From assembly GCF_044324785.1 (NCBI RefSeq), contig NZ_CP172127.1: a stretch of DNA of 64,000 bases. The stretch is one strand, 5' to 3'. Source of the stretch: Escherichia coli (GTDB lineage Bacteria > Pseudomonadota > Gammaproteobacteria > Enterobacterales > Enterobacteriaceae). Under the pieces are notes generated by a model. That model saw nothing but the letters and a program-made list of their open reading frames with translations, searched no databases and was not told the DNA's origin. The position numbers were made by a program, and so were the translations under genes. Each line of letters starts with the position of its first letter. The first letter of the stretch is position 1. Below are positions 45,483 to 60,126 of the stretch, one piece after another.

Positions 45483-46352
45483 ATGGATCAGGCCGGCATT
45501 ATTCGCGACCTTTTAATCTGGCTGGAAGGTCATCTGGATCAGCCCCTGTCGCTCGACAATGTAGCGGCGAAAGCAGGTTATTCCAAGTGGCACTTACAGA
45601 GAATGTTTAAAGATGTCACTGGCCATGCTATTGGCGCGTATATTCGTGCTCGTCGTTTGTCGAAATCGGCGGTCGCACTACGCCTGACTGCGCGTCCGAT
45701 TCTGGACATCGCGCTGCAATACCGCTTCGACTCTCAACAGACATTTACCCGCGCATTCAAGAAGCAGTTTGCCCAGACTCCTGCACTTTACCGCCGTTCT
45801 CCTGAATGGAGCGCCTTTGGTATTCGCCCGCCGCTACGTCTGGGTGAATTCACTATGCCAGAGCACAAATTTGTCACCCTGGAAGATACGCCGCTGATTG
45901 GTGTTACCCAGAGCTACTCCTGTTCGCTGGAGCAAATCTCTGATTTCCGCCATGAAATGCGTTATCAGTTCTGGCACGATTTTCTCGGCAACGCGCCGAC
46001 CATTCCGCCGGTGCTCTACGGCCTGAATGAAACGCGTCCGAGTCAGGATAAAGACGACGAACAAGAAGTATTCTATACCACCGCGTTAGCCCAGGATCAG
46101 GCAGATGGCTATGTACTGACGGGGCATCCGGTGATGCTGCAGGGCGGCGAATATGTGATGTTTACCTATGAAGGTCTGGGAACCGGCGTGCAGGAGTTTA
46201 TCCTGACGGTATACGGAACGTGCATGCCAATGCTCAACCTGACGCGCCGTAAAGGTCAGGATATTGAGCGATACTACCCGGCAGAAGATGCCAAAGCGGG
46301 AGATCGCCCAATTAATCTGCGCTGTGAACTACTGATTCCGATCCGTCGTTAA
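45483..46352 (+). CDS. rob: AraC-family transcriptional regulator Rob
   Basis: 289-aa ORF MDQAGIIRDLLIWLEGHLDQPLSLDNVAAKAGYSKWHLQRMFKDVTGHAIGAYIRARRL. Confidence 0.95.
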   Translation: MDQAGIIRDLLIWLEGHLDQPLSLDNVAAKAGYSKWHLQRMFKDVTGHAIGAYIRARRLSKSAVALRLTARPILDIALQYRFDSQQTFTRAFKKQFAQTPALYRRSPEWSAFGIRPPLRLGEFTMPEHKFVTLEDTPLIGVTQSYSCSLEQISDFRHEMRYQFWHDFLGNAPTIPPVLYGLNETRPSQDKDDEQEVFYTTALAQDQADGYVLTGHPVMLQGGEYVMFTYEGLGTGVQEFILTVYGTCMPMLNLTRRKGQDIERYYPAEDAKAGDRPINLRCELLIPIRR

Positions 46353-46996
46353 CGCTGCAGCTCATCTAATGCAGGGGCGTCCAGATGCGAGATGTCCCCT
46401 GCGGTTTCAACGACCCAGCCAGACGCCAGCCACAGGCTTTCCTGATAATCCACGCGCGAAATAGAACAGTTACGCAAACGTAAGCGACGCTCTGCCCATG
46501 CTGGTAATCCGAGAATCGTACTCACCAGGCATCCCAGTGCAATACCGTGGCTCACCAGCAGCGGTCGGCTTCCCTGCGGTAAGTCCCGGCAAGATTCCAG
46601 TGCCGCATTGACGCGATCGCTGAGCTCCTGCATTGACTCGCCTTCAGGAATACGCCCGTCAACGGTGCCATTGACCAGCTGCCGACGCCAGTTCTCTTCT
46701 TCTTCGGTCAGAGAATCGATATGTCTTTTTTCCAGCACACCCATGTTTAATTCACGCAGGCGAGAATCAAAGATGATGTCACAGCCGCAGGCCTGGGCGA
46801 TGATTTCCGCCGTACGCCGGGTGCGTCCTAAATCGCTACTGATGATATGCGTAATGCCAAGCTCTTTGGCACGGGTTGCCACCTGCATCGCCTGTTGCTC
46901 ACCTTTGGCGGTCAGCGGGCTGTCAGACTGGCCCTGAATACGTCGCTCGGCGTTCCACTGCGTTTCACCGTGGCGGACTAGGTATACCTGTAACAT
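46349..46996 (-). CDS. gpmB: Probable phosphoglycerate mutase GpmB
   Basis: 215-aa ORF MLQVYLVRHGETQWNAERRIQGQSDSPLT (histidine phosphatase motif). Confidence 0.9.
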   Translation of the reverse strand: MLQVYLVRHGETQWNAERRIQGQSDSPLTAKGEQQAMQVATRAKELGITHIISSDLGRTRRTAEIIAQACGCDIIFDSRLRELNMGVLEKRHIDSLTEEEENWRRQLVNGTVDGRIPEGESMQELSDRVNAALESCRDLPQGSRPLLVSHGIALGCLVSTILGLPAWAERRLRLRNCSISRVDYQESLWLASGWVVETAGDISHLDAPALDELQR

Positions 46997-47035
46997 GCTT
47001 TTTTTCCGTATACTGCTGTAACGTTAATTTTCTGA

Positions 47036-47898
<863 letters not shown>

Positions 47899-47972
47899 TT
47901 AGCGGGGGAAGCAAAATGCCTCCCCCGGTTGTACTCGCTAAAGAGTACGATAGCATATCATAAACGTGCGGA

Positions 47973-49910
47973 TCAGTAACGACGTCCCCATTCCGTGGCG
48001 CTCATCAATGTCGGTTTATCCCCCATGAAATAGCGGTAGTAAGCGTCATAAGCCAGCACGTTCTTCACATAACCGCGCGTCTCGGAGAACGGAATACTCT
48101 CGACAAATGCCACTGCGTCGATACGCCCGGCGCTGTTGCCAAGCCAGGTTCGCACCCGCCCTGGTCCGGCGTTATAAGCTGCTGAGGAGAAAATACGGTT
48201 ATTACCAAACTGCTGATAAACATATTGCAGGTAACTGGTGCCAATGTTGATGTTCGTTTCCGGATCCAGCAATTGTCCTGGGCTGCTATAACCAGGAATA
48301 GAGAACATCTTCACCGTATGGGTCGCCGTGCCCGGCATAATCTGCATCAGGCCGCTGGCCCCTACCGGTGATTTCACTTTCGGATTCCAGGCACTCTCCT
48401 GACGGGCAATCGCCATCGCATAGCTTTGCGGGATCTCCTTCCCACTGGTGTAACGTTTGAAAAGATCGTTGTAGGCCAGCGGGAATCTCTCTTCCAGATG
48501 ATCCCAAAGCTTCCCGGCGATCGTTGCCTGAACGCTAAGATCCCACCATTGGTTATTGAAAGCATACCGAGCCAGTTGCGCCTGCTCTGTTTTTGACTTG
48601 CTCTTCACCAGATTGGCCCACTCGCTACGCGCGGTATTATCGAGATTCCAGTACATCAACTCGCGCACGCGCGCCATCTCCGGCCCCTGAGTCAGGGCGC
48701 TGTCAACATTCTGCGGCGCTTTATCAATCTTCAGCTCATACTCTTCACCGATGCGTTGTGCTGCAACCATCGGGTAGAAACCACGCTGTTGCATGAGTTG
48801 ATGCAAAATCTCTTTTGCTTCAGCTTCACGTCCGCGTTCCAGCAGTAAATCCGCCTGCCAGTAACGCCATTCATCTTTCTCTTTCGCCTCCATCGGCAAA
48901 CGCGCCAGCCAGGTATTCAGGCCGCGACGATCGCCGGTGCCAAGCGCCATTCGCACACGGCGTTCAATAAGCGAAGTAGATTGCGAACGCATAATGGCGT
49001 CATCACGCCATTTCGCCTGTTCGTCGGTGACATCGTTGCCCATCAAACGCCAGGCGACGATATCGCGCAGCTCCTGAATCTGATCTTCATTAAGCTGCTG
49101 CGCCTGGGCAAGCGACGGGATCATCAGCCGTGCATTTTCAGCATCCTGCCGCGCCACACTGGCAAACGCCACCGCCGCCATTTGACGGGTAAAATCGGTC
49201 GCTCCGGTTGTACGCGCGAAGGTCAGTACCGTATTAGGATTGTTCGCCAATGAAATAATTGCCGAGGCGATAGTCTGGTAATCGGCAGGCATCTGCCCTG
49301 CCAGCACTGTTACGAGGCCAGTGTTACCCGCTTTCATCGCCAGACGGATACGCTCTAAATACGCCAGCGGATCTTGTTTACCTGACGCACGCCAGACGCT
49401 AAATAACTTGTCACAGGCGTTAGGCTGGCTCTTGCCGGTTAGCCACAGCTCTTTCGCCCCTTGCCAGGCTTCTTCACTCTGCCCGGTGTTCCATTTTGCA
49501 TAGTAGTAATTACATTGCGCTTCGGTAGTTCCGGGCTTTTCCGGGCTAAAGGCTAACAAGCCACGCCAGTCTTCACGCCGCGCCAGTTCATTGACGAAAC
49601 GAGATTGCAGCGTGCGAGCGGGAGGAAGCGTGGGGTTAGCGCGAACAAAGTTAGTGACCGTCACCGCCGGTTGATTCATCAGATCATCGGTGATCTGGCG
49701 GTATTCCAGGTAGGGATAAAGCGGATAATCCTTCAGTCCAGGCATCATTTGTTCGACCACATCCATCTGTCGATTATCCCAGGCCTGCTTGATTTGCGCG
49801 TAACGGCTACGCTGCTCATCCAGTGAGTCGGCTCGCGCCACGCTGCTGACCGTCAGCAGACAGACACCGGCAGCCAACAGCCGCCAGGTAACTTGTTTGG
49901 CTTTTTCCAC
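47973..49910 (-). CDS. slt: Soluble lytic murein transglycosylase
   Basis: ORF 47973..49940; probable GTG start giving (M)EKAKQVTWRLLAAGVCLLTVSSVARA (645 aa). Confidence 0.95.
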   Translation of the reverse strand: MEKAKQVTWRLLAAGVCLLTVSSVARADSLDEQRSRYAQIKQAWDNRQMDVVEQMMPGLKDYPLYPYLEYRQITDDLMNQPAVTVTNFVRANPTLPPARTLQSRFVNELARREDWRGLLAFSPEKPGTTEAQCNYYYAKWNTGQSEEAWQGAKELWLTGKSQPNACDKLFSVWRASGKQDPLAYLERIRLAMKAGNTGLVTVLAGQMPADYQTIASAIISLANNPNTVLTFARTTGATDFTRQMAAVAFASVARQDAENARLMIPSLAQAQQLNEDQIQELRDIVAWRLMGNDVTDEQAKWRDDAIMRSQSTSLIERRVRMALGTGDRRGLNTWLARLPMEAKEKDEWRYWQADLLLERGREAEAKEILHQLMQQRGFYPMVAAQRIGEEYELKIDKAPQNVDSALTQGPEMARVRELMYWNLDNTARSEWANLVKSKSKTEQAQLARYAFNNQWWDLSVQATIAGKLWDHLEERFPLAYNDLFKRYTSGKEIPQSYAMAIARQESAWNPKVKSPVGASGLMQIMPGTATHTVKMFSIPGYSSPGQLLDPETNINIGTSYLQYVYQQFGNNRIFSSAAYNAGPGRVRTWLGNSAGRIDAVAFVESIPFSETRGYVKNVLAYDAYYRYFMGDKPTLMSATEWGRRY

Positions 49911-50120
49911 AAGCGCATCCTCTAAGTGTAAATACATCAATGCAGCGTCATGCCGCGTAATAGATTTATGCTAACCAGTCATTGCCGTTTACGCCACGTT
50001 ACGGACACTTTTTTACTTTTATCGGGAGGGTGATCGACCGGCTGGGATTAGATAAGGAAACAGGCTACACTTCGCCTTTGAAAACTCATCATCACGATAA
50101 ACATAGAGGCGAAGTCCAAC

Positions 50121-51788
50121 GTGGCTCAATTCGTTTATACCATGCATCGTGTCGGCAAAGTTGTTCCGCCGAAACGTCATATTTTGAAAAACATCTCTCT
50201 GAGTTTCTTCCCTGGGGCAAAAATTGGTGTCCTGGGTCTGAACGGCGCGGGTAAGTCCACCCTGCTGCGCATTATGGCGGGCATTGATAAAGACATCGAA
50301 GGCGAAGCGCGTCCGCAACCGGATATCAAGATTGGTTATCTGCCGCAGGAACCGCAGCTGAACCCGGAACACACCGTGCGTGAGTCCATTGAAGAAGCGG
50401 TTTCTGAAGTGGTTAACGCCCTGAAACGCCTGGATGAAGTGTATGCGCTGTACGCCGATCCGGATGCCGATTTTGACAAGCTGGCCGCTGAACAAGGCCG
50501 TCTGGAAGAGATCATTCAGGCTCACGACGGTCACAACCTGAACGTTCAGCTGGAGCGTGCGGCGGATGCGCTGCGTCTGCCGGACTGGGACGCGAAAATC
50601 GCTAACCTCTCCGGTGGTGAGCGTCGTCGCGTGGCGTTGTGCCGCCTGCTGCTGGAAAAACCAGACATGCTGCTGCTCGACGAACCGACCAACCACCTGG
50701 ATGCCGAATCCGTGGCCTGGTTGGAACGCTTCCTGCACGACTTCGAAGGCACCGTGGTGGCGATTACCCACGACCGTTACTTCCTTGATAACGTTGCAGG
50801 CTGGATCCTCGAACTGGACCGCGGTGAAGGTATTCCGTGGGAAGGCAACTACTCCTCCTGGCTGGAGCAGAAAGATCAACGTCTGGCGCAGGAAGCTTCA
50901 CAAGAAGCTGCGCGTCGTAAGTCGATTGAGAAAGAGCTGGAGTGGGTACGTCAGGGAACTAAAGGCCGTCAGTCGAAAGGTAAAGCACGTCTGGCGCGTT
51001 TTGAAGAGCTGAACAGCACCGAATATCAGAAACGTAACGAAACCAACGAACTGTTTATTCCACCAGGACCGCGTCTTGGCGATAAAGTGCTGGAAGTCAA
51101 CAACCTGCGTAAATCCTATGGCGATCGTCTGCTGATTGATGACCTGAGCTTCTCGATCCCGAAAGGAGCGATCGTCGGGATCATCGGTCCGAACGGTGCG
51201 GGTAAATCGACCCTGTTCCGTATGATCTCTGGTCAGGAACAGCCGGACAGCGGCACCATCACTTTGGGTGAAACGGTGAAACTGGCATCGGTTGATCAGT
51301 TCCGTGACTCAATGGATAACAGCAAAACCGTTTGGGAAGAAGTTTCCGGCGGGCTGGATATCATGAAGATCGGCAACACCGAGATGCCAAGCCGTGCCTA
51401 CGTTGGCCGCTTTAACTTTAAAGGGGTTGATCAGGGTAAACGCGTTGGCGAACTCTCCGGCGGTGAGCGCGGTCGTCTGCATCTGGCGAAGCTGCTGCAG
51501 GTTGGCGGCAACATGCTGCTGCTCGACGAACCAACCAACGACCTGGATATCGAAACCCTGCGCGCGCTGGAAAACGCCCTGCTGGAGTTCCCGGGCTGCG
51601 CGATGGTTATCTCGCACGACCGTTGGTTCCTCGACCGTATCGCCACGCACATTCTGGATTACCAGGATGAAGGTAAAGTTGAGTTCTTCGAAGGTAACTT
51701 TACCGAGTACGAAGAGTACAAGAAACGCACGCTGGGCGCAGACGCGCTGGAGCCGAAGCGTATCAAGTACAAGCGTATTGCGAAGTAA
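50121..51788 (+). CDS. ettA: Energy-dependent translational throttle protein EttA (ABC-F ATPase)
   Basis: 555-aa ORF MAQFVYTMHRVGKVVPPKRHILKNISLSFFPGAKIGVLGLNGAGKSTLLRIMAGIDKD; two ABC domains; intact. Confidence 0.97.
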   Translation: MAQFVYTMHRVGKVVPPKRHILKNISLSFFPGAKIGVLGLNGAGKSTLLRIMAGIDKDIEGEARPQPDIKIGYLPQEPQLNPEHTVRESIEEAVSEVVNALKRLDEVYALYADPDADFDKLAAEQGRLEEIIQAHDGHNLNVQLERAADALRLPDWDAKIANLSGGERRRVALCRLLLEKPDMLLLDEPTNHLDAESVAWLERFLHDFEGTVVAITHDRYFLDNVAGWILELDRGEGIPWEGNYSSWLEQKDQRLAQEASQEAARRKSIEKELEWVRQGTKGRQSKGKARLARFEELNSTEYQKRNETNELFIPPGPRLGDKVLEVNNLRKSYGDRLLIDDLSFSIPKGAIVGIIGPNGAGKSTLFRMISGQEQPDSGTITLGETVKLASVDQFRDSMDNSKTVWEEVSGGLDIMKIGNTEMPSRAYVGRFNFKGVDQGKRVGELSGGERGRLHLAKLLQVGGNMLLLDEPTNDLDIETLRALENALLEFPGCAMVISHDRWFLDRIATHILDYQDEGKVEFFEGNFTEYEEYKKRTLGADALEPKRIKYKRIAK

Positions 51789-51876
51789 TGCGTAAAATGC
51801 CGGATGCGGCGCGCCAGCATCGCATCCGGTATTAGTTAAATGATTAGTCCCCGGAAAAAGGCAGAATTTTCTTTAA
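51015..51876. repeat. Direct repeat copy A (ettA 3' end + REP + antitoxin-gene 3' remnant)
   Basis: About 860 bp that recur, with scattered substitutions and one 13-bp indel, at 55917..56776. Confidence 0.8.
51798..51830. repeat. REP element downstream of ettA
   Basis: GCCGGATGCGGCGCGCCAGCATCGCATCCGG palindrome; duplicated at about 56683..56715. Confidence 0.5.
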
Positions 51877-51943
51877 GCGTATTAGCTCAGATGCGGACTG
51901 ACACCTCAAATCAAGCGGGAACTCATGGTTCCCGCTTAACGTT

Positions 51944-52831
51944 TTATTCACCGCGCAGGATCTGGCGGAAATGGGAAACCAGCGGACGTTGGTTGGCTTT
52001 ATGCCAGGCTGCCCATAATTGCGTTGAATAATTCATCCACGGCAATTCACGTAATACCACCCCTTCCGGCGCATTATGACGCAGACTATGTTGAATTAAG
52101 GCCAGACCTAATCCCGCAGCGACCAGACCTAATGCCGTGAGGGGTTCACCCGCTTCCAGGCGAATATCAGGATTAAACCCGGCGTTAACACAGGCGGCGA
52201 CAAAATGATCGCGAGAATGCGCATCGTCGTTATGAATCACCGCAATCCACTGCTCATCGCCAAGTTGTGACGCGACAAGGTTTTCCTCCTGCGCCAGAGG
52301 ATGATTTTGCGGTAAGGCCAACAACATTCGATCATCCAGAACCTGAATATATTCCAGATCCTGCTCGCTGTCGGCGGGCGGCGTATCGACCAGAGAAAAA
52401 TCGAGACTGCGCTGGCGCAGGCCTTCAATCTGGGTAGCCGGTGGTTGGCTGTAAAGTGCGATATGCACATTCGGACGCGATACACGTAACGTACGTAGCG
52501 CCGTAGAAAGCACACCGGAATGCATGGCGTTTTCGATATAGCCAATACACAAGCCACCATCTTCCCCCCGTCCCAGGCGTTTGCCTAACGACTCCAGGCG
52601 GTTGGCGTGTGTCAGCAACGAACGTGTTTCGGCAAGGAATGTCTGTCCATCAGCGGTCAGGCGAATGCGCTGCTGATTACGCTCAAACAGCGTCAGCCCC
52701 AGCCGTTCTTCCAGTTGTGCAATCTGGCGGCTCAGCGGTGATTGCGAGATATGTAATCGCTCGGCTGCGCGTCCCACGTGCTCTTCTTCTGCGACCACCA
52801 CGAAGTACTTCAGTTGGCGTAAATCAATCAT
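51944..52831 (-). CDS. LysR-family transcriptional regulator
   Basis: ORF 51944..52924; canonical LysR N-terminus from internal Met MIDLRQLKYFVVVAEEEHVGRAAERLHISQSPLSRQIAQLEERLG (295 aa); divergent from the adjacent oxidoreductase genes. Confidence 0.85.
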   Translation of the reverse strand: MIDLRQLKYFVVVAEEEHVGRAAERLHISQSPLSRQIAQLEERLGLTLFERNQQRIRLTADGQTFLAETRSLLTHANRLESLGKRLGRGEDGGLCIGYIENAMHSGVLSTALRTLRVSRPNVHIALYSQPPATQIEGLRQRSLDFSLVDTPPADSEQDLEYIQVLDDRMLLALPQNHPLAQEENLVASQLGDEQWIAVIHNDDAHSRDHFVAACVNAGFNPDIRLEAGEPLTALGLVAAGLGLALIQHSLRHNAPEGVVLRELPWMNYSTQLWAAWHKANQRPLVSHFRQILRGE

Positions 52832-52896
52832 GTTAGACCTCAAAGGACTTAAGTCAGACGAATTATGTCCTATCAAGTCACAACCTCGCAAGGTAT

Positions 52897-52912
52897 TGTG
52901 ATCCACGTCACA
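52897..52912. promoter_or_regulatory. Perfect TGTGA-N6-TCACA palindrome in the LysR/AKR divergent promoter region
   Basis: TGTGATCCACGTCACA in the 133-bp intergenic region; fits the CRP half-site consensus and also a T-N11-A LysR-type box. Confidence 0.3.
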
Positions 52913-52964
52913 GGGCGATAGCAAAAAAACGCCCTAACCCAAACCGAATAATTGAGGACATCTT

Positions 52965-53975
52965 ATGAGCATCAAAAATTTACTTCCCGGCAAAATTGGC
53001 TTAGGTGGCGCACCACTCGGCAACATGTTCCGTGCCATTCCGGAAGACGAGGCCCACGCCACCGTGAGCGAAGCCTGGAACCTGGGCGTGCGTTACTTTG
53101 ATACCGCGCCGCTGTACGGCTCTGGCCTTTCTGAAATCCGCATGGGTGAAGCGCTGTCTCAGTATCCACGCGATGAATACGTTCTGAGCAGCAAAGTCGG
53201 TCGCATCATGCTGGACGAAATGGAAGATCCGGCAAAACGTGATTTCGGTGAAAAAGGTGGCCTGTTCGAACACGGCCTGAAAAACAAAATTCTGAATGAC
53301 TACTCTGCTGACGCCACGCTGCGCTCGATTGAAGACAGCCTGAAACGCCTGAAAACAGACCGTCTGGATATTGTCTGGATCCATGACCCGGCGCAGGACT
53401 TCTACGGTGACAGCTGGCTGGAACAGTTCAACATTGCCCGTACCGGTGCGTTTCGTGCGCTGACGCGTTTGCGTGACGAAGGTGTGATTAAAGCCTGGGG
53501 ACTGGGTGTGAATCGCGTCGAACCTTGCGAACTGACGCTGGCGCTGGACGAACCGAAGCCGGATGCGTTCCTGCTGGCGGGGCGTTATTCCCTGCTGGAT
53601 CACGAACGTGCGCTGCAACGCCTGATGCCAGAAGCACTGGAACAGAACGTGGATATTGTTGTGGGCGGTCCGTACAGCTCTGGCGTACTGGCAGGCGGCG
53701 AGCACTTTGAATATCAGAAAGCTTCTGCGGCCATCCAGCAGAAAGTGGCGCAAATTAACACCATTGCCACACGTTTCAATGTGAACGTTAAAGCAGCTGC
53801 GCTGCAGTTCGCACTGGCAAACCCGGCCGTTGCGGCGGTTATTCCTGGCTCCAGCCGTCCTGGCCGTATGGCAGAAGATCTGGCTGCACTGAATGCGCCT
53901 GTTCCGGCTGAATTCTGGGCAGAAATGCGCCGTCAAAATCTGGTTGCGGAAAACGCTCCGCTGCCGACCCGTTAA
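52965..53975 (+). CDS. Aldo/keto reductase family oxidoreductase
   Basis: 336 aa, MSIKNLLPGKIGLGGAPLGNMF...YFDTAPLYGSG; AKR fold motifs. Confidence 0.85.
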   Translation: MSIKNLLPGKIGLGGAPLGNMFRAIPEDEAHATVSEAWNLGVRYFDTAPLYGSGLSEIRMGEALSQYPRDEYVLSSKVGRIMLDEMEDPAKRDFGEKGGLFEHGLKNKILNDYSADATLRSIEDSLKRLKTDRLDIVWIHDPAQDFYGDSWLEQFNIARTGAFRALTRLRDEGVIKAWGLGVNRVEPCELTLALDEPKPDAFLLAGRYSLLDHERALQRLMPEALEQNVDIVVGGPYSSGVLAGGEHFEYQKASAAIQQKVAQINTIATRFNVNVKAAALQFALANPAVAAVIPGSSRPGRMAEDLAALNAPVPAEFWAEMRRQNLVAENAPLPTR

Positions 53976-53994
53976 TCAACCTGGTGAGAAAACG

Positions 53995-54792
53995 ATGAAA
54001 CTGGATCTGACAGGTAAAGTCGCGGTAGTCAGCGGCTCAACCTCCGGCATTGGGCAGGGTATCGCCGCCGGACTGGCAAAAGCAGGCGCAACGGTGGTTG
54101 TCGTCGGCCGTAAACAGCGCGGCGTTGATGACGCCATGGCTGCGATTGCGGCACAAACTCCCACGGCGTCACTGCGTGGCGTGGTGGCCGACCTCAGCAC
54201 CGAAGACGGCGTGGCTGCGCTGATCGCTGCAGTCCCAACGGCTGATGTGCTGGTCAATAATCTGGGCATTTTTAACGATAAAGATTTCTTTAGCGTTCCG
54301 GATGATGAGTGGATGCACTTCTATAACGTCAACGTCCTCTCCGGCGTTCGTCTGGCGCGTCACTATGCGCCAGGCATGACGGAACAGGGCTGGGGGCGGA
54401 TTATCTTTGTCTCGTCCGAATCCGGCGTGGCAATCCCTGGCGACATGATCAACTACGGCGTCACCAAAGCCGCGAATCTGGCGGTTTCTCATGGTCTGGC
54501 GAAACGACTGGCGGGGACCGGTGTGACCGTCAACGCCATTCTGCCAGGGCCAACCTTTACCGATGGCCTGAAAGAGATGCTGGCGGATGCCGCTGCACAA
54601 TCGGGACGCAGTGCGCGTGAACAGGCCGATGAGTTTGTTAAAACCTCGCGTCCGAGCTCCATCATCCAGCGTGCGGCGGATGTGGAAGAAGTGGCGAATC
54701 TGGCGGTTTATCTCGCGTCACCGCTTTCCTCGGCAACCACAGGGGCAGCCCTGCGCGTCGATGGTGGCGTCGTCGACACCCTGACTATGTAA
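53995..54792 (+). CDS. Short-chain dehydrogenase/reductase (SDR)
   Basis: ORF 53893..54792; start MKLDLTGKVAVVSGSTSGIGQGIA (TGxxxGxG Rossmann motif) preceded by GGTGAG; 265 aa. Confidence 0.85.
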   Translation: MKLDLTGKVAVVSGSTSGIGQGIAAGLAKAGATVVVVGRKQRGVDDAMAAIAAQTPTASLRGVVADLSTEDGVAALIAAVPTADVLVNNLGIFNDKDFFSVPDDEWMHFYNVNVLSGVRLARHYAPGMTEQGWGRIIFVSSESGVAIPGDMINYGVTKAANLAVSHGLAKRLAGTGVTVNAILPGPTFTDGLKEMLADAAAQSGRSAREQADEFVKTSRPSSIIQRAADVEEVANLAVYLASPLSSATTGAALRVDGGVVDTLTM

Positions 54793-54817
54793 CCCTATAA
54801 ATTAAGAGAAAATTATC

Positions 54818-55234
54818 ATGGCTAAAACAACTGTATCGATCGAAATTCCGGCTTCTGCCGACGCCGTATGGCAATTGATGGGCGGCTTTGATGCGCTGCC
54901 AGACTGGCTGCCGTTCATCCCGAAAAGCGTGGTGACAGAAGGCGGTCGCGTTCGTTCGCTGACAACCTCTGACGGCGGCACTGTGGTTGAACGTCTGGAA
55001 GCGTTTGATAACCGTCAACGCAGTTATACCTATTCCATTATTCAAGCACCGTTCCCAGTGGTGGATTACCTCTCCACCATTACCGTTCATGAAACCGCCG
55101 ACAGCCAGGTTTCCCGTGTGGAATGGTTCGGTGAATTCACCCCGGTGAATGTGACGAACGAAGAGGCCGAAGCGCTGTTTACCGGCATCTATCGGGATGG
55201 TCTCAAGGCGCTGAAGGACAACTTTGTTGCCTGA
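54818..55234 (+). CDS. SRPBCC-superfamily (polyketide cyclase / Bet v1-like) protein
   Basis: 138 aa; family assignment from overall sequence character, moderate certainty. Confidence 0.6.
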   Translation: MAKTTVSIEIPASADAVWQLMGGFDALPDWLPFIPKSVVTEGGRVRSLTTSDGGTVVERLEAFDNRQRSYTYSIIQAPFPVVDYLSTITVHETADSQVSRVEWFGEFTPVNVTNEEAEALFTGIYRDGLKALKDNFVA

Positions 55235-55391
55235 TGCAATCGACAGGCGTCGGAACGTCCGGCGTCTGATTATTAACAAAAGCAGAATAGTCTATTGTCA
55301 TTTGTATCATTTATGTTATCAGGCAGCAGGCGTATTCTCTTCCCATCGCGTTAATAAACGCCAAACAATTAAGACACTCTGGAATATAAAC

Positions 55392-55604
55392 ATGAAAACG
55401 ATCATCGCAATTTTTACGGCTTCTCTTTTCTCTGTCGCGGCGTTTAACGCATCGGCGCAAAGCGTGACAGCAACCGGTACAACACTGGATTCTGCGGAAG
55501 CAGTTATTGCGCAGAAAGCGAAAGAGATGAACGCCTCTGAATACAAAATCACCAGCGCTCGCATGGGCAATACCGTCACCATGAGTGCCGAACTGTACAA
55601 ATAA
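55392..55604 (+). CDS. DUF1471 (YdgH/BhsA/McbA-like) small secreted stress protein
   Basis: 70-aa frame MKTIIAIFTASLFSVAAFNASAQSV...ASEYKITSARMGNTVTMSAELYK; signal peptide and family-typical C-terminus. Confidence 0.7.
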   Translation: MKTIIAIFTASLFSVAAFNASAQSVTATGTTLDSAEAVIAQKAKEMNASEYKITSARMGNTVTMSAELYK

Positions 55605-55628
55605 CCGCGCAAGGGACCCATTACGTAA

Positions 55629-55838
55629 TTTGCTAAATATGCGCTGAATGCGTTGCCATTAAAAAACCGTATTGTAATGCCACCGATGACACGTTCCCGT
55701 GCGGGTGACGTTGCGACTGACATGATGGCGGACTATTACGCGCAGCGCGCTAGTGCAGGACTTATCATCAGCGAAGGTACGCAAATCAGCAGAAGCGCTG
55801 CGCATAATTTTCCACGGCCCGCTGATTTACTCCGGTAA
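55629..55838 (+). pseudogene. Remnant of an Old-Yellow-Enzyme (NemA-like) NADH:flavin oxidoreductase gene
   Basis: Frame encodes PLKNRIVMPPMTRSR...MMADYYAQRASAGLIISEGTQIS, resembling an OYE N-terminus, then loses similarity and stops; no in-frame ATG. Confidence 0.55.
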
Positions 55839-55916
55839 ATAGACCAAAGCGCGCGCAGAAGCGGACTGTCAGATTTGATTGCATTCTGGCTACGCAACTG
55901 GTCGGTTGGAGTATGA

Positions 55917-56677
55917 AGCACCGAATATCAGAAACGTAACGAAACCAACGAACTGTTTATTCCACCTGGACCGTGTCTGGGCGACAAAGTGCTGGAAGTC
56001 AGCAACCTGCGTAAATCCTATGGCGATCGTCTGCTGATTGACTCCCTGAGCTTCTCGATCCCGAAAGGAGCGATCGTCGGGATCATCGGTCCGAACGGTA
56101 CGGGCAAATCGACGTTGTTCCGTATGATCTCTGGTCAGGAACAGCCGGACAGCGGCACCATCACTCTGGGTGAAACGGTGAAACTGGCATCGGTTGATCA
56201 GTTCCGTGACTCAATGGATAACCGCAAAGCCGTTTGGGAAGAAGTTTCCGGCGGGCTGGATATCATGAAGATCGGCAACACCGAGATGCCAAGCCGCGCC
56301 TACGTTGGCCGCTTTAACTTTAAGGTAAACGCGTTGGTGAACTTTCCGGTGGTGAGCGCGGTCGTCTGCATCTGGCGAAGCTGCTGCAGGTTGGCGGCAA
56401 CATGCTGCTGCTCGACGAACCAACTAACGACCTGAATATCGAAACCCTGCGCGCGCTGGAAAACGCCCTACTGGAGTTCCCGGGCTGTGCGATGGTTATC
56501 TCGCACGACCGTTGGTTCCTCGACCGTATCGCCACGCACATCCTGGACTACCAGGATGAAGGTAAAGTTGAGTTCTTCGAAGGTAACTTTACCGAGTACG
56601 AAGAGTACAAAAAACGCACGCTGGGCGCAGACGCGCTGGAGCCGAAGCGTATCAAGTACAAGCGTATTGCGAAGTAA
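55917..56677 (+). pseudogene. Truncated, frameshifted second copy of the ettA 3' half
   Basis: Matches ettA from about 51015 onward with scattered substitutions and a 13-bp deletion near 56320 that breaks the frame; no 5' half. Confidence 0.85.
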
Positions 56678-56776
56678 TGCGTAAAATGCCGGGTGCGGCG
56701 CGCCAGCATCGCATCCGGTATTAGTTAAATGATTAATGGGAGGCAAGTTCCCGGAAAAAGGCAGGATTTTCTTTAA
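55917..56776. repeat. Direct repeat copy B (ettA' + REP + 3' end of intact antitoxin gene)
   Basis: Counterpart of 51015..51876. Confidence 0.8.
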
Positions 56777-57017
56777 TTGTGGCAAGTACTTTTGCAGCCA
56801 ATCCCGTAGGATTTCTTCGCTTCGATTCCCAGCTTTTAATGGTATCCACACTGGTTCCCAGAGCTTTTGCCATCTCACTTTGAGAAACGTTGAGTTGCTC
56901 ACGAATAGCTTTAACATCCGCAATTTCGTAGCGGGTCACCCGTGCAGGTTCTTTTAAACCTTGTTTAATCTCGACAGCCTCTTCCAGAGAGGTTTTCAAC
57001 TCATCAAAAAAACTCAT
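56733..57017 (-). CDS. HTH (XRE-like) antitoxin of a type II toxin-antitoxin pair
   Basis: 94 aa; C-terminal helix-turn-helix (LNVSQSEMAKALGTSVDTIKSWE); start 1 bp after the toxin stop. Confidence 0.7.
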   Translation of the reverse strand: MSFFDELKTSLEEAVEIKQGLKEPARVTRYEIADVKAIREQLNVSQSEMAKALGTSVDTIKSWESKRRNPTGLAAKVLATIKENPAFFRELASH

Positions 57018-57018
57018 T

Positions 57019-57351
57019 TTATACCTCGCCTTTGAGCAGTTTCGTCAACTTCTTTAGTTGAGCTTTTTCCGTATCTGTCAGACTATCTTTGGCATTTTTC
57101 GGATAGGCCATAATCAAATAAATAATCTCTTCCGTCGCCAGAAAGTAAATTATTCTGACACTGCCACTTTTTCCCTGTGAACCCGCAGCCATTCGGACTT
57201 TACGCAATCCACCAGTCTGCTGAATGAGATCACCTTTATCGGGAGTTCCGATGAGTTCTTTTTGTAATTCCTTTAATTCATCATCGGTTGCAATCTGCTT
57301 GATCTGACGCGTAAACATTGGCGTCTCTATAAATATTATCGCCTTGCCCAT
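57019..57351 (-). CDS. RelE/ParE-superfamily (HigB-like) toxin, putative
   Basis: ORF 57019..57429; likely start MGKAIIFIETPMF preceded by GGGAGG (about 110 aa); toxin-first gene order. Confidence 0.6.
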   Translation of the reverse strand: MGKAIIFIETPMFTRQIKQIATDDELKELQKELIGTPDKGDLIQQTGGLRKVRMAAGSQGKSGSVRIIYFLATEEIIYLIMAYPKNAKDSLTDTEKAQLKKLTKLLKGEV

Positions 57352-57366
57352 CCCCCCTCCCTGGCA

Positions 57367-57399
57367 GGTACATTGTACACCGAAATGGAGTACTAAGTA
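57367..57399. promoter_or_regulatory. Paired GTAC-containing palindromes upstream of the toxin gene (candidate operator)
   Basis: GTACATTGTAC and GTACTAAGTAC about 20 bp apart, 16-48 bp upstream of the proposed toxin start. Confidence 0.3.
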
Positions 57400-57442
57400 C
57401 ACTTTTGAATTAGTAATCCCACTCAACATCTTATAAAGATGA

Positions 57443-58675
57443 TTATCCCTGCTCCCCCATCATCTCCCGCACCAGCTCCACACAGCGCAGGAAACGGCTG
57501 TCGTAATCGTCCTCTTCAACCCGCACAAATTCGATATTGTTCTCTTCCAGCATCTCTACCAGCAAGTTCTGGAACTCTTTGCGATCCACCGAACTACCGA
57601 GGCTGCGTAAACCATCCGCCACCCACGGGGTGTTGTTCTCCAGCAAGATAACCAGATCAAAACGGTATTCATCGATCAGCGCCTGCACGAACGGATGCTC
57701 CCGCCCTTCGTACTTTTTGCAGAACGCCTGGGTAGTGACAAAATCAGTGTCGATAAACGCCACTTTATTGGCATATTTCACTGCAAAATCAATGTATTGA
57801 GCGTGTCCCAGCGCGATTTTATCGTAGTCGGAATACTGCAATGCGATCTCATCACCGCCAAGGTGTGAAAAGACATAATCGCGACCATATTCCCATGCAC
57901 TGGTAGTGTTGAAGATATTAGCAAGTTTGTTTACCAGGGTGGATTTACCGCTCGACTCGCCGCCAAGGATCGCCACGGTACGCACAAAGAACGGCTTCAC
58001 TTCGGTGGGAATATATTCCCAGTAGCGGAACGGGTTTTCGCGGATCTGCGCACCGCTGATACTCATAAAGGTACGCTTCGGATCGACCAGCACCGTCTCG
58101 ATCCCCAGATGTTCCATATACTGTGGCGCATCGGCTTCTTCCGAGGTGTAGATCAGGTCCGGCTGGATCCCCTTTTCAGCCATAAACTTTTTGATGCCGT
58201 TGCTCCACACATCCCAGCCGTGCGGATATGGCTCCATGCCCTCTTCGTTGAAAGCATGAATACGGATATTTTTCTGATATTTAAAGGTTTGCAATAACCA
58301 GCGCAGACGATCCGGCACGGTGGGCTGCTGCGACATGGCGCTGTCTTCAAACAACGCGCGGTCGCGGGTATCGTCAAAACCCATAATGATATGCAGCTCG
58401 TCAACCTGGCTACAGGCGCGCTGGATAAGGTAGATATGTCCGGTATGTAGCGGGTAGAACTTACCGAATACGACACCAATGGTTTTCTTCTGTCGGGGAA
58501 ATTCAAGCCCCAAAAAACGGTGCAACGCCTCCAGTTTTTGCGCGCTGGGGCTTTTAATTTTGGCATTCAGTAACTGGCTTAAATACCCTTTGGTCATACC
58601 GCTGGCATCAGCTACCTGCTGTAGCGTGCAGCCCTGTTGCTTGATGGCAGTTTTCAGGTAATCAAATGACGACAT
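57443..58675 (-). CDS. nadR: Trifunctional NAD biosynthesis/regulator protein NadR
   Basis: ORF 57443..58696; NadR from MSSFDYLKTAIKQQGCTLQQVADASGMTKGYLSQLL (410 aa). Confidence 0.95.
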   Translation of the reverse strand: MSSFDYLKTAIKQQGCTLQQVADASGMTKGYLSQLLNAKIKSPSAQKLEALHRFLGLEFPRQKKTIGVVFGKFYPLHTGHIYLIQRACSQVDELHIIMGFDDTRDRALFEDSAMSQQPTVPDRLRWLLQTFKYQKNIRIHAFNEEGMEPYPHGWDVWSNGIKKFMAEKGIQPDLIYTSEEADAPQYMEHLGIETVLVDPKRTFMSISGAQIRENPFRYWEYIPTEVKPFFVRTVAILGGESSGKSTLVNKLANIFNTTSAWEYGRDYVFSHLGGDEIALQYSDYDKIALGHAQYIDFAVKYANKVAFIDTDFVTTQAFCKKYEGREHPFVQALIDEYRFDLVILLENNTPWVADGLRSLGSSVDRKEFQNLLVEMLEENNIEFVRVEEDDYDSRFLRCVELVREMMGEQG

Positions 58676-58695
58676 ATCTCCCTCCGTATCTCTCA

Positions 58696-60078
58696 TTATA
58701 AGTCGTCGAACACGCTAAGCGCGTCGGAGAGTTTTTTAACGCCAAAAATCTGCATCCCTTCCGGCGCTTTTTTCGGCACGTTAGCCGCCGGAACAATCGC
58801 CCGGCGAAAACCGTGTTTCGCCGCTTCAGAGATTCGTTCCTGACCGCTGGGCACCGGGCGGATCTCCCCTGCCAGCCCGACTTCACCAAACACCACCAGA
58901 TCCTGTGGCAGCGGTCTGTCGCGCAGGCTGGAAACCATCGCCAGCAGTAACGCTAAGTCGGCGCTGGTTTCGGTTACCTTCACGCCGCCGACCACGTTCA
59001 CAAACACATCCTGATCGGCCATTTGCAGACCACCGTGACGGTGCAAGACAGCCAGCAGGATTGCCAGACGGTTTTGTTCCAGCCCCACTGCCACGCGGCG
59101 CGGATTCGCCATCATCGAGTGATCGACCAGCGCCTGAATCTCCACCAGCAACGGACGCGTTCCTTCCCACACCACCATCACTGAGCTACCGGAGGTCACT
59201 TCATCACCGCGGCTTAAAAAGATGGCGGAAGGGTTGCTGACTTCACGCAGCCCCTGTTCGGTCATCGCGAAGACGCCCAGCTCATTCACCGCGCCGAAGC
59301 GGTTTTTATGGCTGCGTAAGGTGCGAAAACGGGAGTCGGCATCGCCATCCAGAAGCACCGAACAGTCAATACAGTGTTCCAGCACTTTAGGGCCAGCCAG
59401 CGAACCATCTTTGGTTACGTGCCCAACCATGACAATCGCCACGCCGCGCGTTTTGGCGAAGCGCGTCAGATAAGCCGCCGTTTCACGCACCTGCGCCACG
59501 CTGCCAGGCGATGATTGTACATCCGCCATATGCATCACCTGAATGGAGTCAATTACCATCAGCTTCGGTTGCTCTTCTTCGGCAATCAGGCAGATTTGCT
59601 CGATGCTGGTTTCCGACAACATATTGAGATTGTCAGTCGGCAGGCCAAGGCGATGAGCGCGCATTGCCACCTGTTGCAGCGACTCTTCGCCGGTGACATA
59701 CAGCGTTTTCATCTGCTGCGCCAGTTTGCACAGCGTTTGCAGCAACAGCGTGGATTTCCCCGCACCTGGGTTACCGCCAATCAGAATGGCGCTTCCCGGC
59801 ACCACCCCGCCGCCTAATACGCGGTCGAACTCTTTAAATCCGGTGGAAAAACGCGGCAGCTCTTCAAGGCTGATGTCGGAAAGTTTCTGGACTTTTGCCA
59901 CCCCGGCGCTACCGGCATAGCCACTGAGACGCTCGTTACGCGCCACCGTTGGTGACGCGGCAAGACGCACCTCGGTGATGGTGTTCCAGGCATGACAGGC
60001 ACTGCACTGTCCCTGCCAGCGCGGATAATCGGCCCCGCATTCATTACAAACAAAGGCGCGTTTTGGAGCTTTTGCCAC
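58696..60078 (-). CDS. radA: DNA repair protein RadA (Sms)
   Basis: ORF 58696..60126; probable GTG start giving (M)AKAPKRAFVCNECGADYPRWQGQCSAC; Walker A GNPGAGKST. Confidence 0.95.
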   Translation of the reverse strand: MAKAPKRAFVCNECGADYPRWQGQCSACHAWNTITEVRLAASPTVARNERLSGYAGSAGVAKVQKLSDISLEELPRFSTGFKEFDRVLGGGVVPGSAILIGGNPGAGKSTLLLQTLCKLAQQMKTLYVTGEESLQQVAMRAHRLGLPTDNLNMLSETSIEQICLIAEEEQPKLMVIDSIQVMHMADVQSSPGSVAQVRETAAYLTRFAKTRGVAIVMVGHVTKDGSLAGPKVLEHCIDCSVLLDGDADSRFRTLRSHKNRFGAVNELGVFAMTEQGLREVSNPSAIFLSRGDEVTSGSSVMVVWEGTRPLLVEIQALVDHSMMANPRRVAVGLEQNRLAILLAVLHRHGGLQMADQDVFVNVVGGVKVTETSADLALLLAMVSSLRDRPLPQDLVVFGEVGLAGEIRPVPSGQERISEAAKHGFRRAIVPAANVPKKAPEGMQIFGVKKLSDALSVFDDL

Positions 60079-60126
60079 GGTGTACCTCGTTAATGCTGTG
60101 CCGCCCGCAGGATGACGGGCGAGCAA

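What the first reader, a model, noticed from the sequence alone, without database searches (positions are those of the whole stretch)
51015..56776. About 4 kb cargo segment bracketed by ~860 bp imperfect direct repeats of the ettA 3' end
The last ~770 bp of ettA, the REP element after it and ~45 bp matching the 3' end of the downstream antitoxin gene occur twice in direct orientation (51015..51876 and 55917..56776). Copy A completes an intact ettA; copy B is a 5'-less ettA fragment followed by the intact antitoxin. The copies differ by scattered substitutions and a 13-bp indel, so this is not a fresh tandem duplication. Copy A also carries a diverged antitoxin C-terminus (...LKENSAFFRGL versus ...IKENPAFFRELASH), suggesting the left repeat came from a different allele or lineage. 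No integrase, transposase or tRNA is present, so acquisition by homologous recombination with foreign DNA sharing the ettA flank is most consistent.
Basis: seen in the sequence. Interest (0 to 1): 0.7.

Follow-up and report, generated by a model that had tools for sequence, protein, structure and literature searches.

The report
Island-plus-toxin-antitoxin hybrid with ettA duplication
A rare E. coli lineage carries, between ettA and nadR, both alternative contents of this variable spot (a 4-kb redox-gene islet and a toxin-antitoxin pair), joined by one non-homologous junction that left a decaying second copy of the ettA 3' end; this is ordinary genome plasticity, not a new kind of element.

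Summary
Window 51015-51876 and 55917-56776 are direct repeats (29 substitutions plus a 13-bp and an 11-bp indel, 96.6% identity). Copy A completes an intact ettA. Copy B is a 5'-truncated, frameshifted ettA pseudogene next to an intact nadS/RelE-ParE toxin-antitoxin pair.

Of 5,426 complete E. coli genomes, about 414 carry the same islet without the duplication and without the toxin gene. 673 carry the toxin-antitoxin pair. Only one (06-00048) has the window's arrangement. Draft and metagenome assemblies also show it, two of them 100% identical to the window, so it is not an assembly artefact.

Copy B shares nine private substitutions and the 13-bp deletion in diverged strains, with relaxed constraint. 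This points to one old event.

The islet's right end is the same base (within 2 nt) whether it is joined to the nadS 5' remnant (common form) or to mid-ettA (window). That base is where the islet allele and the toxin-antitoxin allele stop being homologous.

Best reading: a hybrid of the two alleles made by recombination that was homologous on one side and illegitimate on the other (AG microhomology). Interest is modest.

The parts
50121..51788 (+). Intact ettA (ABC-F translational throttle, 555 aa). Its last 774 bp form the ettA part of repeat copy A.
   Evidence: ORF list; annotated as ettA in collinear genomes.
51015..51876 (+). Repeat copy A: ettA 3' 774 bp, REP hairpin (about 51799-51830), and a 33-bp remnant of the nadS 3' end.
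51844..51876 (-). nadS 3' remnant (...LKENSAFFRGL*). It has an 11-bp deletion and 2-3 substitutions relative to intact nadS. It is the left border of the islet in every islet-bearing genome examined.
51877..55918 (.). Islet (4,042 bp). It comprises 36 bp of unknown origin; the LysR regulator (51944-52831, minus strand); aldo/keto reductase (52965-53975); SDR oxidoreductase (53995-54792); SRPBCC protein (54818-55234); DUF1471/BhsA-like protein (55392-55604); an OYE/NemA-like remnant (about 55653-55864, with a 686-bp internal deletion and a premature stop); and a conserved right block (about 55861-55918).
   Evidence: Annotation of collinear genomes; NCBIfam; comparison with Escherichia strain E69 and E. 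whittamii, where the module sits at other loci; longer islet variants.
55917..55918 (.). The novel illegitimate joint: ...GGAGTATGA[AG]CACCGAATATC. AG is shared by the islet end and by ettA 51013-51014. A looser match is TGAA(CA)G.
   Evidence: This junction is present in only 1 of 5,426 complete genomes.
55917..56776 (+). Repeat copy B: a 5'-truncated ettA pseudogene (to 56677, with a 13-bp deletion causing a frameshift), the REP hairpin, and the 3' end of the intact nadS.
56733..57017 (-). Intact nadS (HTH antitoxin, 94 aa).
   Evidence: NCBIfam NF041265, 179 bits against a cut-off of 60; Pfam HTH_3.
57019..57351 (-). RelE/ParE-family toxin gene (110 aa), upstream of nadS in the same operon.
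   Evidence: Annotation; Pfam PF06296. Described as parE-3/yiaG-2 'TA30' in PMC7232551.
57443..58675 (-). nadR, the right-hand core flank.

Best explanation
The ettA-nadR spacer of E. coli is a variable spot with alternative contents.

- One allele holds the nadS/RelE-ParE toxin-antitoxin pair (TA allele).
- A second allele holds a roughly 4-kb redox/detoxification islet. It replaced the middle 116 bp of a nadS whose toxin gene had already been deleted (islet allele).

The window carries a hybrid of the two. The left part is the islet allele: ettA, REP, nadS tail, islet. The right part is the TA allele, starting inside ettA: ettA 3' end, REP, nadS, toxin, nadR.

The two parts meet at one non-homologous junction. 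Because the TA-allele part begins 860 bp upstream of where the islet begins, those 860 bp are present twice.

The junction on the islet side lies exactly where the islet allele and the TA allele stop being alignable (islet end | nadS 5' part). I therefore infer the following sequence:
1. The molecules were paired through the nadS-5'/nadR homology.
2. Strand exchange stopped at that border.
3. The non-homologous tail of the TA-allele DNA (ettA 3' end, REP, rest of nadS) was kept and ligated there through AG microhomology.

This is recombination that is homologous on one side and illegitimate on the other (HFIR-like).

The event happened once and long ago. The redundant ettA copy has since decayed. 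The hybrid segment has been passed among islet-bearing strains by ordinary homologous recombination.

Shown: the anatomy, the population frequencies, the single origin, the decay of copy B, and the islet being a derived (internally deleted) form. Inferred: the pairing and ligation mechanism, and which allele was donor and which recipient.
For: 1. Allele survey of 5,426 complete genomes. 415 hold at least 80% of the 8.8-kb region. The listed ones other than 06-00048 show 94% coverage, with the islet end joined to the nadS 5' remnant. 673 hold the toxin-antitoxin pair. Only 06-00048 holds the islet|ettA' junction.
2. The islet's right end is the same to within 2 nt in both junction types...GTATGA[AG]TTGCTCACG versus ...GTATGA[AG]CACCGAA. 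It is also the same in longer islet variants (L094, L097) and in 13 metagenome contigs.
3. The window's islet carries the derived internal deletion of the common form. The longer variants keep an extra 0.7-1.6 kb at 55860. The window's form therefore descends from the common islet form.
4. The nadS tail on the left has an 11-bp deletion and 2-3 substitutions in 33 bp. The nadS 5' remnant of the common form is only 88-91% identical to the window's nadS. Both belong to a nadS allele different from the intact nadS next to copy B.
5. Single old origin. Copy B of the window, L103 and 06-00048 share 9 private substitutions and the 13-bp deletion. They then differ by 2 and 5-6 further changes. Private changes are 8 non-synonymous: 8 synonymous, against about 3:50 among functional alleles (Fisher p = 1.7e-4).
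6. Later spread by homologous recombination. Window versus N3 (common form) shows 0/941, 3/2024 and 1/1254 mismatches in slt, the left half of the islet and nadR. The segment between islet and nadR is completely different.
Against: No intermediate was found. The direction (TA-allele DNA entering an islet strain, or the reverse) is not resolved.

SNP patterns in the two copies are mosaic and fit neither simple prediction. Copy B's 5' half resembles B2-type TA-allele ettA, and its 3' half resembles islet-strain ettA.

In published HFIR events (my recollection of de Vries and Wackernagel 2002 and Prudhomme et al. 2002, not checked here), the recipient-side joint is often displaced from the homology border. 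An exact border is therefore suggestive, not diagnostic.

The microhomology is only 2 nt, or 5 nt with a 2-nt bulge.
Confidence: 0.6

Rival explanations
1. Campbell-type integration. A circular molecule containing ettA 3' end, REP, nadS tail and islet was closed by an illegitimate joint between the islet end and ettA 51015. It then integrated by a single homologous crossover within the 860-bp ettA/REP homology of a TA-allele chromosome. This duplicates that homology around the islet and leaves nadS and the toxin gene untouched.
For: The product has exactly the topology of a single-crossover integrant. The direct repeats equal one contiguous chromosomal stretch, and there is only one novel joint. 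The model also explains why the toxin-antitoxin pair stays intact. No genome has the islet abutting nadS with the toxin gene present.
Against: The circle's closing joint would have to fall, for no stated reason, exactly on the islet|nadS border of the donor (roughly 1 chance in 1,000-4,000). The predicted mosaic (copy B donor-like at its 5' end, recipient-like at its 3' end) is the opposite of what is seen, although later recombination could have blurred it. No circular form is known.
Confidence: 0.2
2. The duplicated arrangement is the primary product of islet insertion into a TA-allele chromosome. The common, unduplicated islet form arose from it by deleting ettA', REP and the nadS 3' part, and by deleting the toxin gene.
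For: Going from the window's form to the common form needs only loss of DNA. Deletion between the two AG dinucleotides (55917-55918 and 56893-56894) would give the common junction.
Against: The longer, less-deleted islet variants all have the islet|nadS junction, not the ettA' junction. The window's islet carries the derived internal deletion. The common form's nadS remnant and its toxin-deletion scar are the K-12-type allele, shared with islet-free genomes. They are not a deletion derivative of the window's nadS/toxin. The left nadS tail is too diverged to come from the neighbouring intact nadS.
Confidence: 0.08
3. One reading: the cargo was acquired by homologous recombination with foreign DNA that shared the ettA flank, and the repeats are the footprint of that exchange.
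For: The module is indeed foreign to this locus. It occurs after pitA-yhiN in Escherichia strain E69, after glyQS in E. whittamii, and in Trabulsiella, Yokenella and Yersinia. Islet alleles do move between E. coli strains by homologous exchange.
Against: A double homologous crossover replaces sequence and does not duplicate it. About 414 genomes have the cargo with no duplication. The islet|ettA' joint is non-homologous.
Confidence: 0.07
4. Assembly artefact or recent tandem duplication.
For: None beyond the presence of a repeat.
Against: The copies differ by 3.4% plus two indels. The structure recurs in a complete genome, in drafts and in a metagenome contig, with up to 1.8% flanking divergence.
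Confidence: 0.01

Closest known systems
Homology-facilitated illegitimate recombination, also called 'homologous recombination at the border' (de Vries and Wackernagel 2002, Acinetobacter; Prudhomme, Libante and Claverys 2002, S. pneumoniae). Cited from my own knowledge, not retrieved here.
   Same: One side of the exchange is anchored in homology. The other end of the incoming DNA is joined at a short microhomology. Extra non-homologous DNA is trapped next to the anchor.
   Different: Those systems are naturally transformable species studied in the laboratory. Here the event is inferred from a natural E. coli haplotype. The trapped 'foreign' tail is itself a copy of nearby chromosomal DNA (hence a duplication). 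The microhomology is only 2-5 nt.
Campbell-type single-crossover integration of a circular DNA (duplication-insertion)
   Same: The insert is bracketed by direct repeats of one contiguous chromosomal segment, and there is one novel joint.
   Different: No circular replicon, integrase or att site is present. The repeats are 860 bp of a housekeeping gene. The position of the joint is unexplained under this model.
parE-3/yiaG-2 (TA30) genomic islet in the nadR-ettA spacer of AIEC NRG857c and UPEC CFT073 (PMC7232551)
   Same: Same toxin-antitoxin pair at the same locus. Present in 673 of 5,426 complete genomes.
   Different: That paper describes the plain TA allele. It does not describe the islet, the ettA' pseudogene or their coexistence.
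Chromosomal toxin-antitoxin modules that stabilise neighbouring DNA against loss (Szekeres et al. 2007; Wozniak and Waldor 2009). Cited from my own knowledge.
   Same: An intact toxin-antitoxin pair sits where an allelic replacement would have removed or disrupted it. Islet-disrupted nadS never coexists with an intact toxin gene.
   Different: Toxicity and addiction of this pair have not been tested. The pattern is equally explained by the islet having first inserted into a toxin-less background.

Membership tests
Integrase-mediated genomic island | Integrase/recombinase gene within or beside the island | tested here: not met
   No such ORF, annotation or Pfam hit in 51877-55918 or its flanks.
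Integrase-mediated genomic island | Insertion at a tRNA/tmRNA gene, with short att direct repeats | tested here: not met
   No tRNA in 46000-62000. The repeats are 860 bp of ettA/REP/nadS, not att sites.
Composite transposon / IS-bounded unit | IS copies or terminal inverted repeats at both ends | tested here: not met
   No inverted repeats of 30 bp or more in 48000-60000. No transposase in the window's interval. Some other strains have a secondary IS insertion between ettA and the LysR gene (L095, L098).
Single-crossover (Campbell) integration product | Direct repeats equal to one contiguous chromosomal segment flanking the insert, with one novel joint | tested here: met
   Copies A and B are collinear with the ettA-REP-nadS stretch of TA-allele genomes. 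The only joint not found in other alleles is 55917/55918.
Single-crossover (Campbell) integration product | Existence of the circular intermediate | not testable with these tools
   Needs outward-facing PCR or long reads from cultures.
Homology-facilitated illegitimate recombination | Illegitimate joint at a short microhomology, with a homologous anchor on the other side | tested here: inconclusive
   AG (2 nt), or TGAA(CA)G, at the joint. The joint lies within 0-2 nt of the border of the nadS-5'/nadR homology between the two alleles. The anchor's role is inferred, not observed.
Type II toxin-antitoxin system (RelE/ParE toxin with HTH antitoxin NadS) | Adjacent small toxin and antitoxin genes of the named families, both intact | tested here: met
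   NadS NF041265, 179 bits. Toxin PF06296. Proteins identical to WP_000007436.1 and WP_000513551.1.
Type II toxin-antitoxin system (RelE/ParE toxin with HTH antitoxin NadS) | Toxin is growth-inhibitory and is neutralised by the antitoxin | not testable with these tools
   No functional test was found in PMC7232551.
EttA (ABC-F) - does copy B qualify? | Two complete ABC domains in one open frame | tested here: not met
   Copy B lacks codons 1-298. It has a 13-bp frameshifting deletion and a Walker-A A-to-T change. Copy A meets the criterion (555 aa).

The most novel reading that the evidence does not exclude
The duplication is a footprint of toxin-antitoxin 'anti-replacement'. Suppose the islet allele enters a cell carrying nadS and the RelE/ParE toxin. 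Ordinary allelic replacement would either delete the pair (post-segregational toxicity) or leave the toxin without its antitoxin. Only rare duplicative integrants that keep the pair intact would then survive. The toxin-antitoxin pair would thus dictate the architecture of gene gain at its own locus.
Probability: 0.15. Interest if true: 0.55.

Novelty: new member of a known kind. Interest (0 to 1): 0.3.

Why it matters
This is a clean natural example of how two mutually exclusive alleles at a bacterial variable spot can be merged by a recombination event that is homologous on one side and illegitimate on the other.

The dated pseudogene copy shows that the product can persist for a long time despite 860-bp direct repeats that should promote loss of the islet.

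It also raises a testable question: does a chromosomal toxin-antitoxin pair constrain which recombinants survive at its locus?

It does not reveal a new type of mobile element or a new biochemical system.

Tried and rejected
1. Site-specific or transposon origin. No tRNA, integrase, transposase or terminal inverted repeats were found.

2. Copy B as a foreign, still-constrained ettA allele. Rejected. Its private changes are half non-synonymous, against about 6% in functional alleles. Its non-private sites match E. coli alleles.

3. A longer microhomology (CACCGAATA versus CACGAATA, 5 nt inside nadS) as the crossover site. Rejected, because the TTGCT between AG and CAC is absent from the window's joint.

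4. A Chi site as the determinant of the ettA breakpoint. By eye there is only a one-mismatch Chi-like octamer (CCACCAGG on the top strand) about 40 nt to the right of 51015, so I did not pursue this.

5. The 58-bp right block as a diverged nadS middle part or an HTH-coding remnant. Its translation shows no similarity. It is always contiguous with the nadS 5' remnant and is preceded, in longer variants, by a hairpin.

6. Crossover mapping from SNP mosaics in copies A and B. The population is too recombined to read donor and recipient.

7. Looking for other contexts of the islet's right end. A metagenome scan gave 13 contigs, all with the common junction.

8. Looking for pop-out products, meaning TA-allele ettA carrying copy-B private SNPs. 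No functional allele is more than 96.2% identical to copy B.

9. A literature search for HFIR with duplication returned nothing directly relevant.


Full report
**Context.** The window region is the E. coli slt-ettA-nadR-radA neighbourhood.

**Observation.** Positions 51015-51876 and 55917-56776 are direct repeats. A global alignment gives 29 substitutions, a 13-bp gap (missing from copy B) and an 11-bp gap (missing from copy A), with 96.6% identity outside gaps.
- Copy A is the last 774 bp of an intact 555-aa ettA, followed by a REP hairpin and a 33-bp remnant of the nadS 3' end.
- Copy B is an ettA fragment that starts at codon 299 and is frameshifted by the 13-bp deletion. It is followed by the same REP and by the intact antitoxin gene nadS (56733-57017) and a RelE/ParE-family toxin gene (57019-57351).
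- No tRNA, integrase or transposase lies in the interval.

**What lies between the repeats.** The 4,042 bp between the copies (51877-55918) encode:
- a LysR regulator (minus strand);
- an aldo/keto reductase;
- an SDR oxidoreductase;
- an SRPBCC protein;
- a DUF1471/BhsA-like periplasmic protein;
- the remnant of an OYE/NemA-like flavin reductase.

By family membership this is probably a regulator-controlled module for reducing reactive carbonyl or electrophilic compounds. That function is inferred, not tested.

The same module occurs at other chromosomal sites with an intact or differently deleted OYE gene:
- after pitA-yhiN in the divergent Escherichia strain E69;
- after glyQS in E. whittamii;
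- at 77-89% DNA identity in Trabulsiella, Yokenella, Yersinia, Raoultella and others.

In E69 and E. whittamii it always begins at the LysR terminator hairpin (window 51913).

**The locus in the population.** Searches of 5,426 complete E. coli genomes show several alternative contents of the ettA-nadR spacer.
- (a) K-12 type. REP/BIME sequence, then only the 5' 114-125 bp of nadS and a scar where the toxin gene was deleted (window 57047|57443).
- (b) Solo nadS with the same scar.
- (c) TA allele. nadS plus toxin, in 673 genomes. This has been published as the parE-3/yiaG-2 'TA30' islet (PMC7232551).
- (d) Islet allele. 415 genomes hold at least 80% of the region, and every listed one except 06-00048 looks like this. 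The order is ettA, REP, nadS tail, islet, nadS 5' remnant, scar, nadR. The islet replaces the middle 116 bp of a nadS whose toxin gene is already gone.
- (e) The window's form. Islet, then ettA', then intact toxin-antitoxin pair. Among complete genomes it occurs only in strain 06-00048.

Longer versions of the islet allele also exist. They carry an extra TauE-containing (1.6 kb) or GNAT-containing (0.7 kb) segment at window position 55860, and a fourth variant appears in a metagenome. All of them share the last roughly 60-80 bp of the islet and the junction to the nadS 5' remnant. The common islet form is therefore an internal-deletion derivative. The window carries that same derived deletion.

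**Not an artefact, and one origin.**
- The exact 91-aa ORF of copy B is found on 18 contigs. The three long enough to span the region (L103-L105) show the window's arrangement, and a 1.2-kb contig (L106) shows copy B next to the toxin-antitoxin pair.
- Two NCBI drafts are 100% identical to the window over 15.6 and 8.3 kb. A metagenome contig is 99.3% identical.
- The window and 06-00048 are collinear over 12.8 kb without a single indel, but differ at 233 positions.
- Copy B of the window, L103 and 06-00048 share nine private substitutions and the 13-bp deletion. They then differ by 2 and 5-6 further changes.
- Private changes in copy B are 8 non-synonymous to 8 synonymous. About 50 polymorphic sites in functional ettA alleles change only two amino-acid positions (Fisher p = 1.7e-4).

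The duplication therefore arose once and long ago, and copy B has since drifted as a pseudogene.

Segment-by-segment comparison shows the usual E. coli mosaic. For example, the window and the islet-allele strain N3 are nearly identical in slt (0/941), the left half of the islet (3/2024) and nadR (1/1254), yet hold different DNA between islet and nadR. The ettA'-toxin-antitoxin segment can thus be swapped between islet-bearing strains by ordinary homologous recombination.

**The key anatomical clue.** The islet ends at the same base, within a 2-nt ambiguity, in both junction types:
- ...GGAGTATGA[AG]TTGCTCACG (nadS 5' part) in the common form and in all longer variants;
- ...GGAGTATGA[AG]CACCGAATATC (ettA position 51015) in the window.

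A random illegitimate crossover would hit that base with a probability of roughly 1 in 1,000-4,000. That base is exactly where an islet-allele molecule and a TA-allele molecule, aligned through nadR and the nadS 5' part, cease to be homologous.

The simplest account is that the two alleles paired through that homology, exchange stopped at the border, and the non-homologous tail of the TA-allele DNA (975 nt: ettA 3' end, REP, the rest of nadS) was retained and ligated there via the AG (or TGAA..G) microhomology. This is the logic of homology-facilitated illegitimate recombination, which I cite from my own knowledge. The result keeps the islet, restores a complete nadS and toxin gene, and leaves 860 bp duplicated. 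This step is inference.

**Rivals.**
- A Campbell-type integration of a circular ettA3'-islet molecule gives the same product. It also explains why the toxin-antitoxin pair is untouched. It does not explain why the circle closed exactly at the border, and the SNP mosaic is the reverse of its simple prediction.
- The idea that the duplicated form came first and the common form is its deletion derivative is disfavoured. The longer, less-deleted islet variants have the nadS junction. The window has the derived internal deletion. The common form's nadS remnant and scar are the K-12-type allele.
- An assembly artefact is excluded.

**A selective twist that remains open.** No complete genome has the islet abutting the nadS 5' part with the toxin gene intact (0 of 5,426). 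The islet and the toxin-antitoxin pair coexist only in the duplicated form.
- One reading: toxin without antitoxin, or sudden loss of both, is not tolerated, so only duplicative recombinants survive in a toxin-antitoxin background.
- The other reading: the islet simply first inserted into a toxin-less background.

The toxicity of this pair has not been tested. I give the first, 'anti-replacement' reading about 15%.

**Verdict.** The structure is a rare, old, single-origin hybrid haplotype at a known variable locus, made by one illegitimate joint plus homology. It is a tidy example of known processes rather than a new kind of element, so interest is modest (0.3).

Noticed in passing
window 51913-55864; L008 8949-13761; L009 8947-13116: The LysR-AKR-SDR-SRPBCC-DUF1471-OYE module sits at three unrelated chromosomal sites in Escherichia: ettA-nadR in E. 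coli, after pitA-yhiN in strain E69, and after glyQS in E. whittamii. In E69 and E. whittamii its left end is the same to within a few bp, at the LysR terminator hairpin, and its native right end lies a few bp past the OYE stop. I saw no mobility genes or terminal repeats. How it moves is unexplained.
   Followed up: partly
L094 6470-8051; L097 6470-7196; L122; window 55858-55918: Inside the islet, at window position 55860, at least four alternative contents occur: nothing, TauE plus a 123-aa ORF, a GNAT acetyltransferase, and a fourth sequence. All lie to the left of a conserved block of about 80 bp that begins with the hairpin TCCGCTTC-TCGCTC-GAAGCGGA. This looks like a nested cassette-exchange point.
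   Followed up: partly
window 56893-56916 (nadS, minus strand): Independent truncations of nadS end within 23 bp of each other: islet forms at 56893, K-12/O157 at 56904, others at 56907 and 56916. The 5' 110-125 bp of nadS is always kept next to nadR. A 2025 study reports that the K-12 remnant is expressed (PMC12350097). This suggests either a retained function or a breakpoint hotspot.
   Followed up: no
window 57047|57443: The deletion that removed the toxin gene leaves the same scar (30 bp of the toxin 3' end, then 3 nt, then the nadR stop) in K-12, solo-nadS and islet alleles. This points to one ancient deletion later spread by recombination.
   Followed up: partly
L107 (ENA metagenome scaffold, 814 bp): In this contig a copy-B-type ettA end (with the 13-bp deletion) runs directly into the nadS tail and the left end of the islet, which is the copy-A position. 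It is either an assembly chimera across the near-identical REP region or a gene-conversion variant that would inactivate ettA.
   Followed up: no
L095 1025-2373; L098 1025-2373: Some islet-allele strains have an IS (rve-family transposase) inserted between the ettA/REP region and the LysR gene. This is a secondary insertion that is absent from the window.
   Followed up: no
window 50665-50788 vs 51511-51634 and 56400-56523: A third repeat family (70-73% identity) is simply the two ABC domains of ettA matching each other. It is not part of the rearrangement.
   Followed up: yes
window about 62900-64000 (L103 14489-15820): A HipA_C-domain gene (yjjJ-like, a solitary hipA paralogue) lies downstream of lplA, near the right end of the window.
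   Followed up: no
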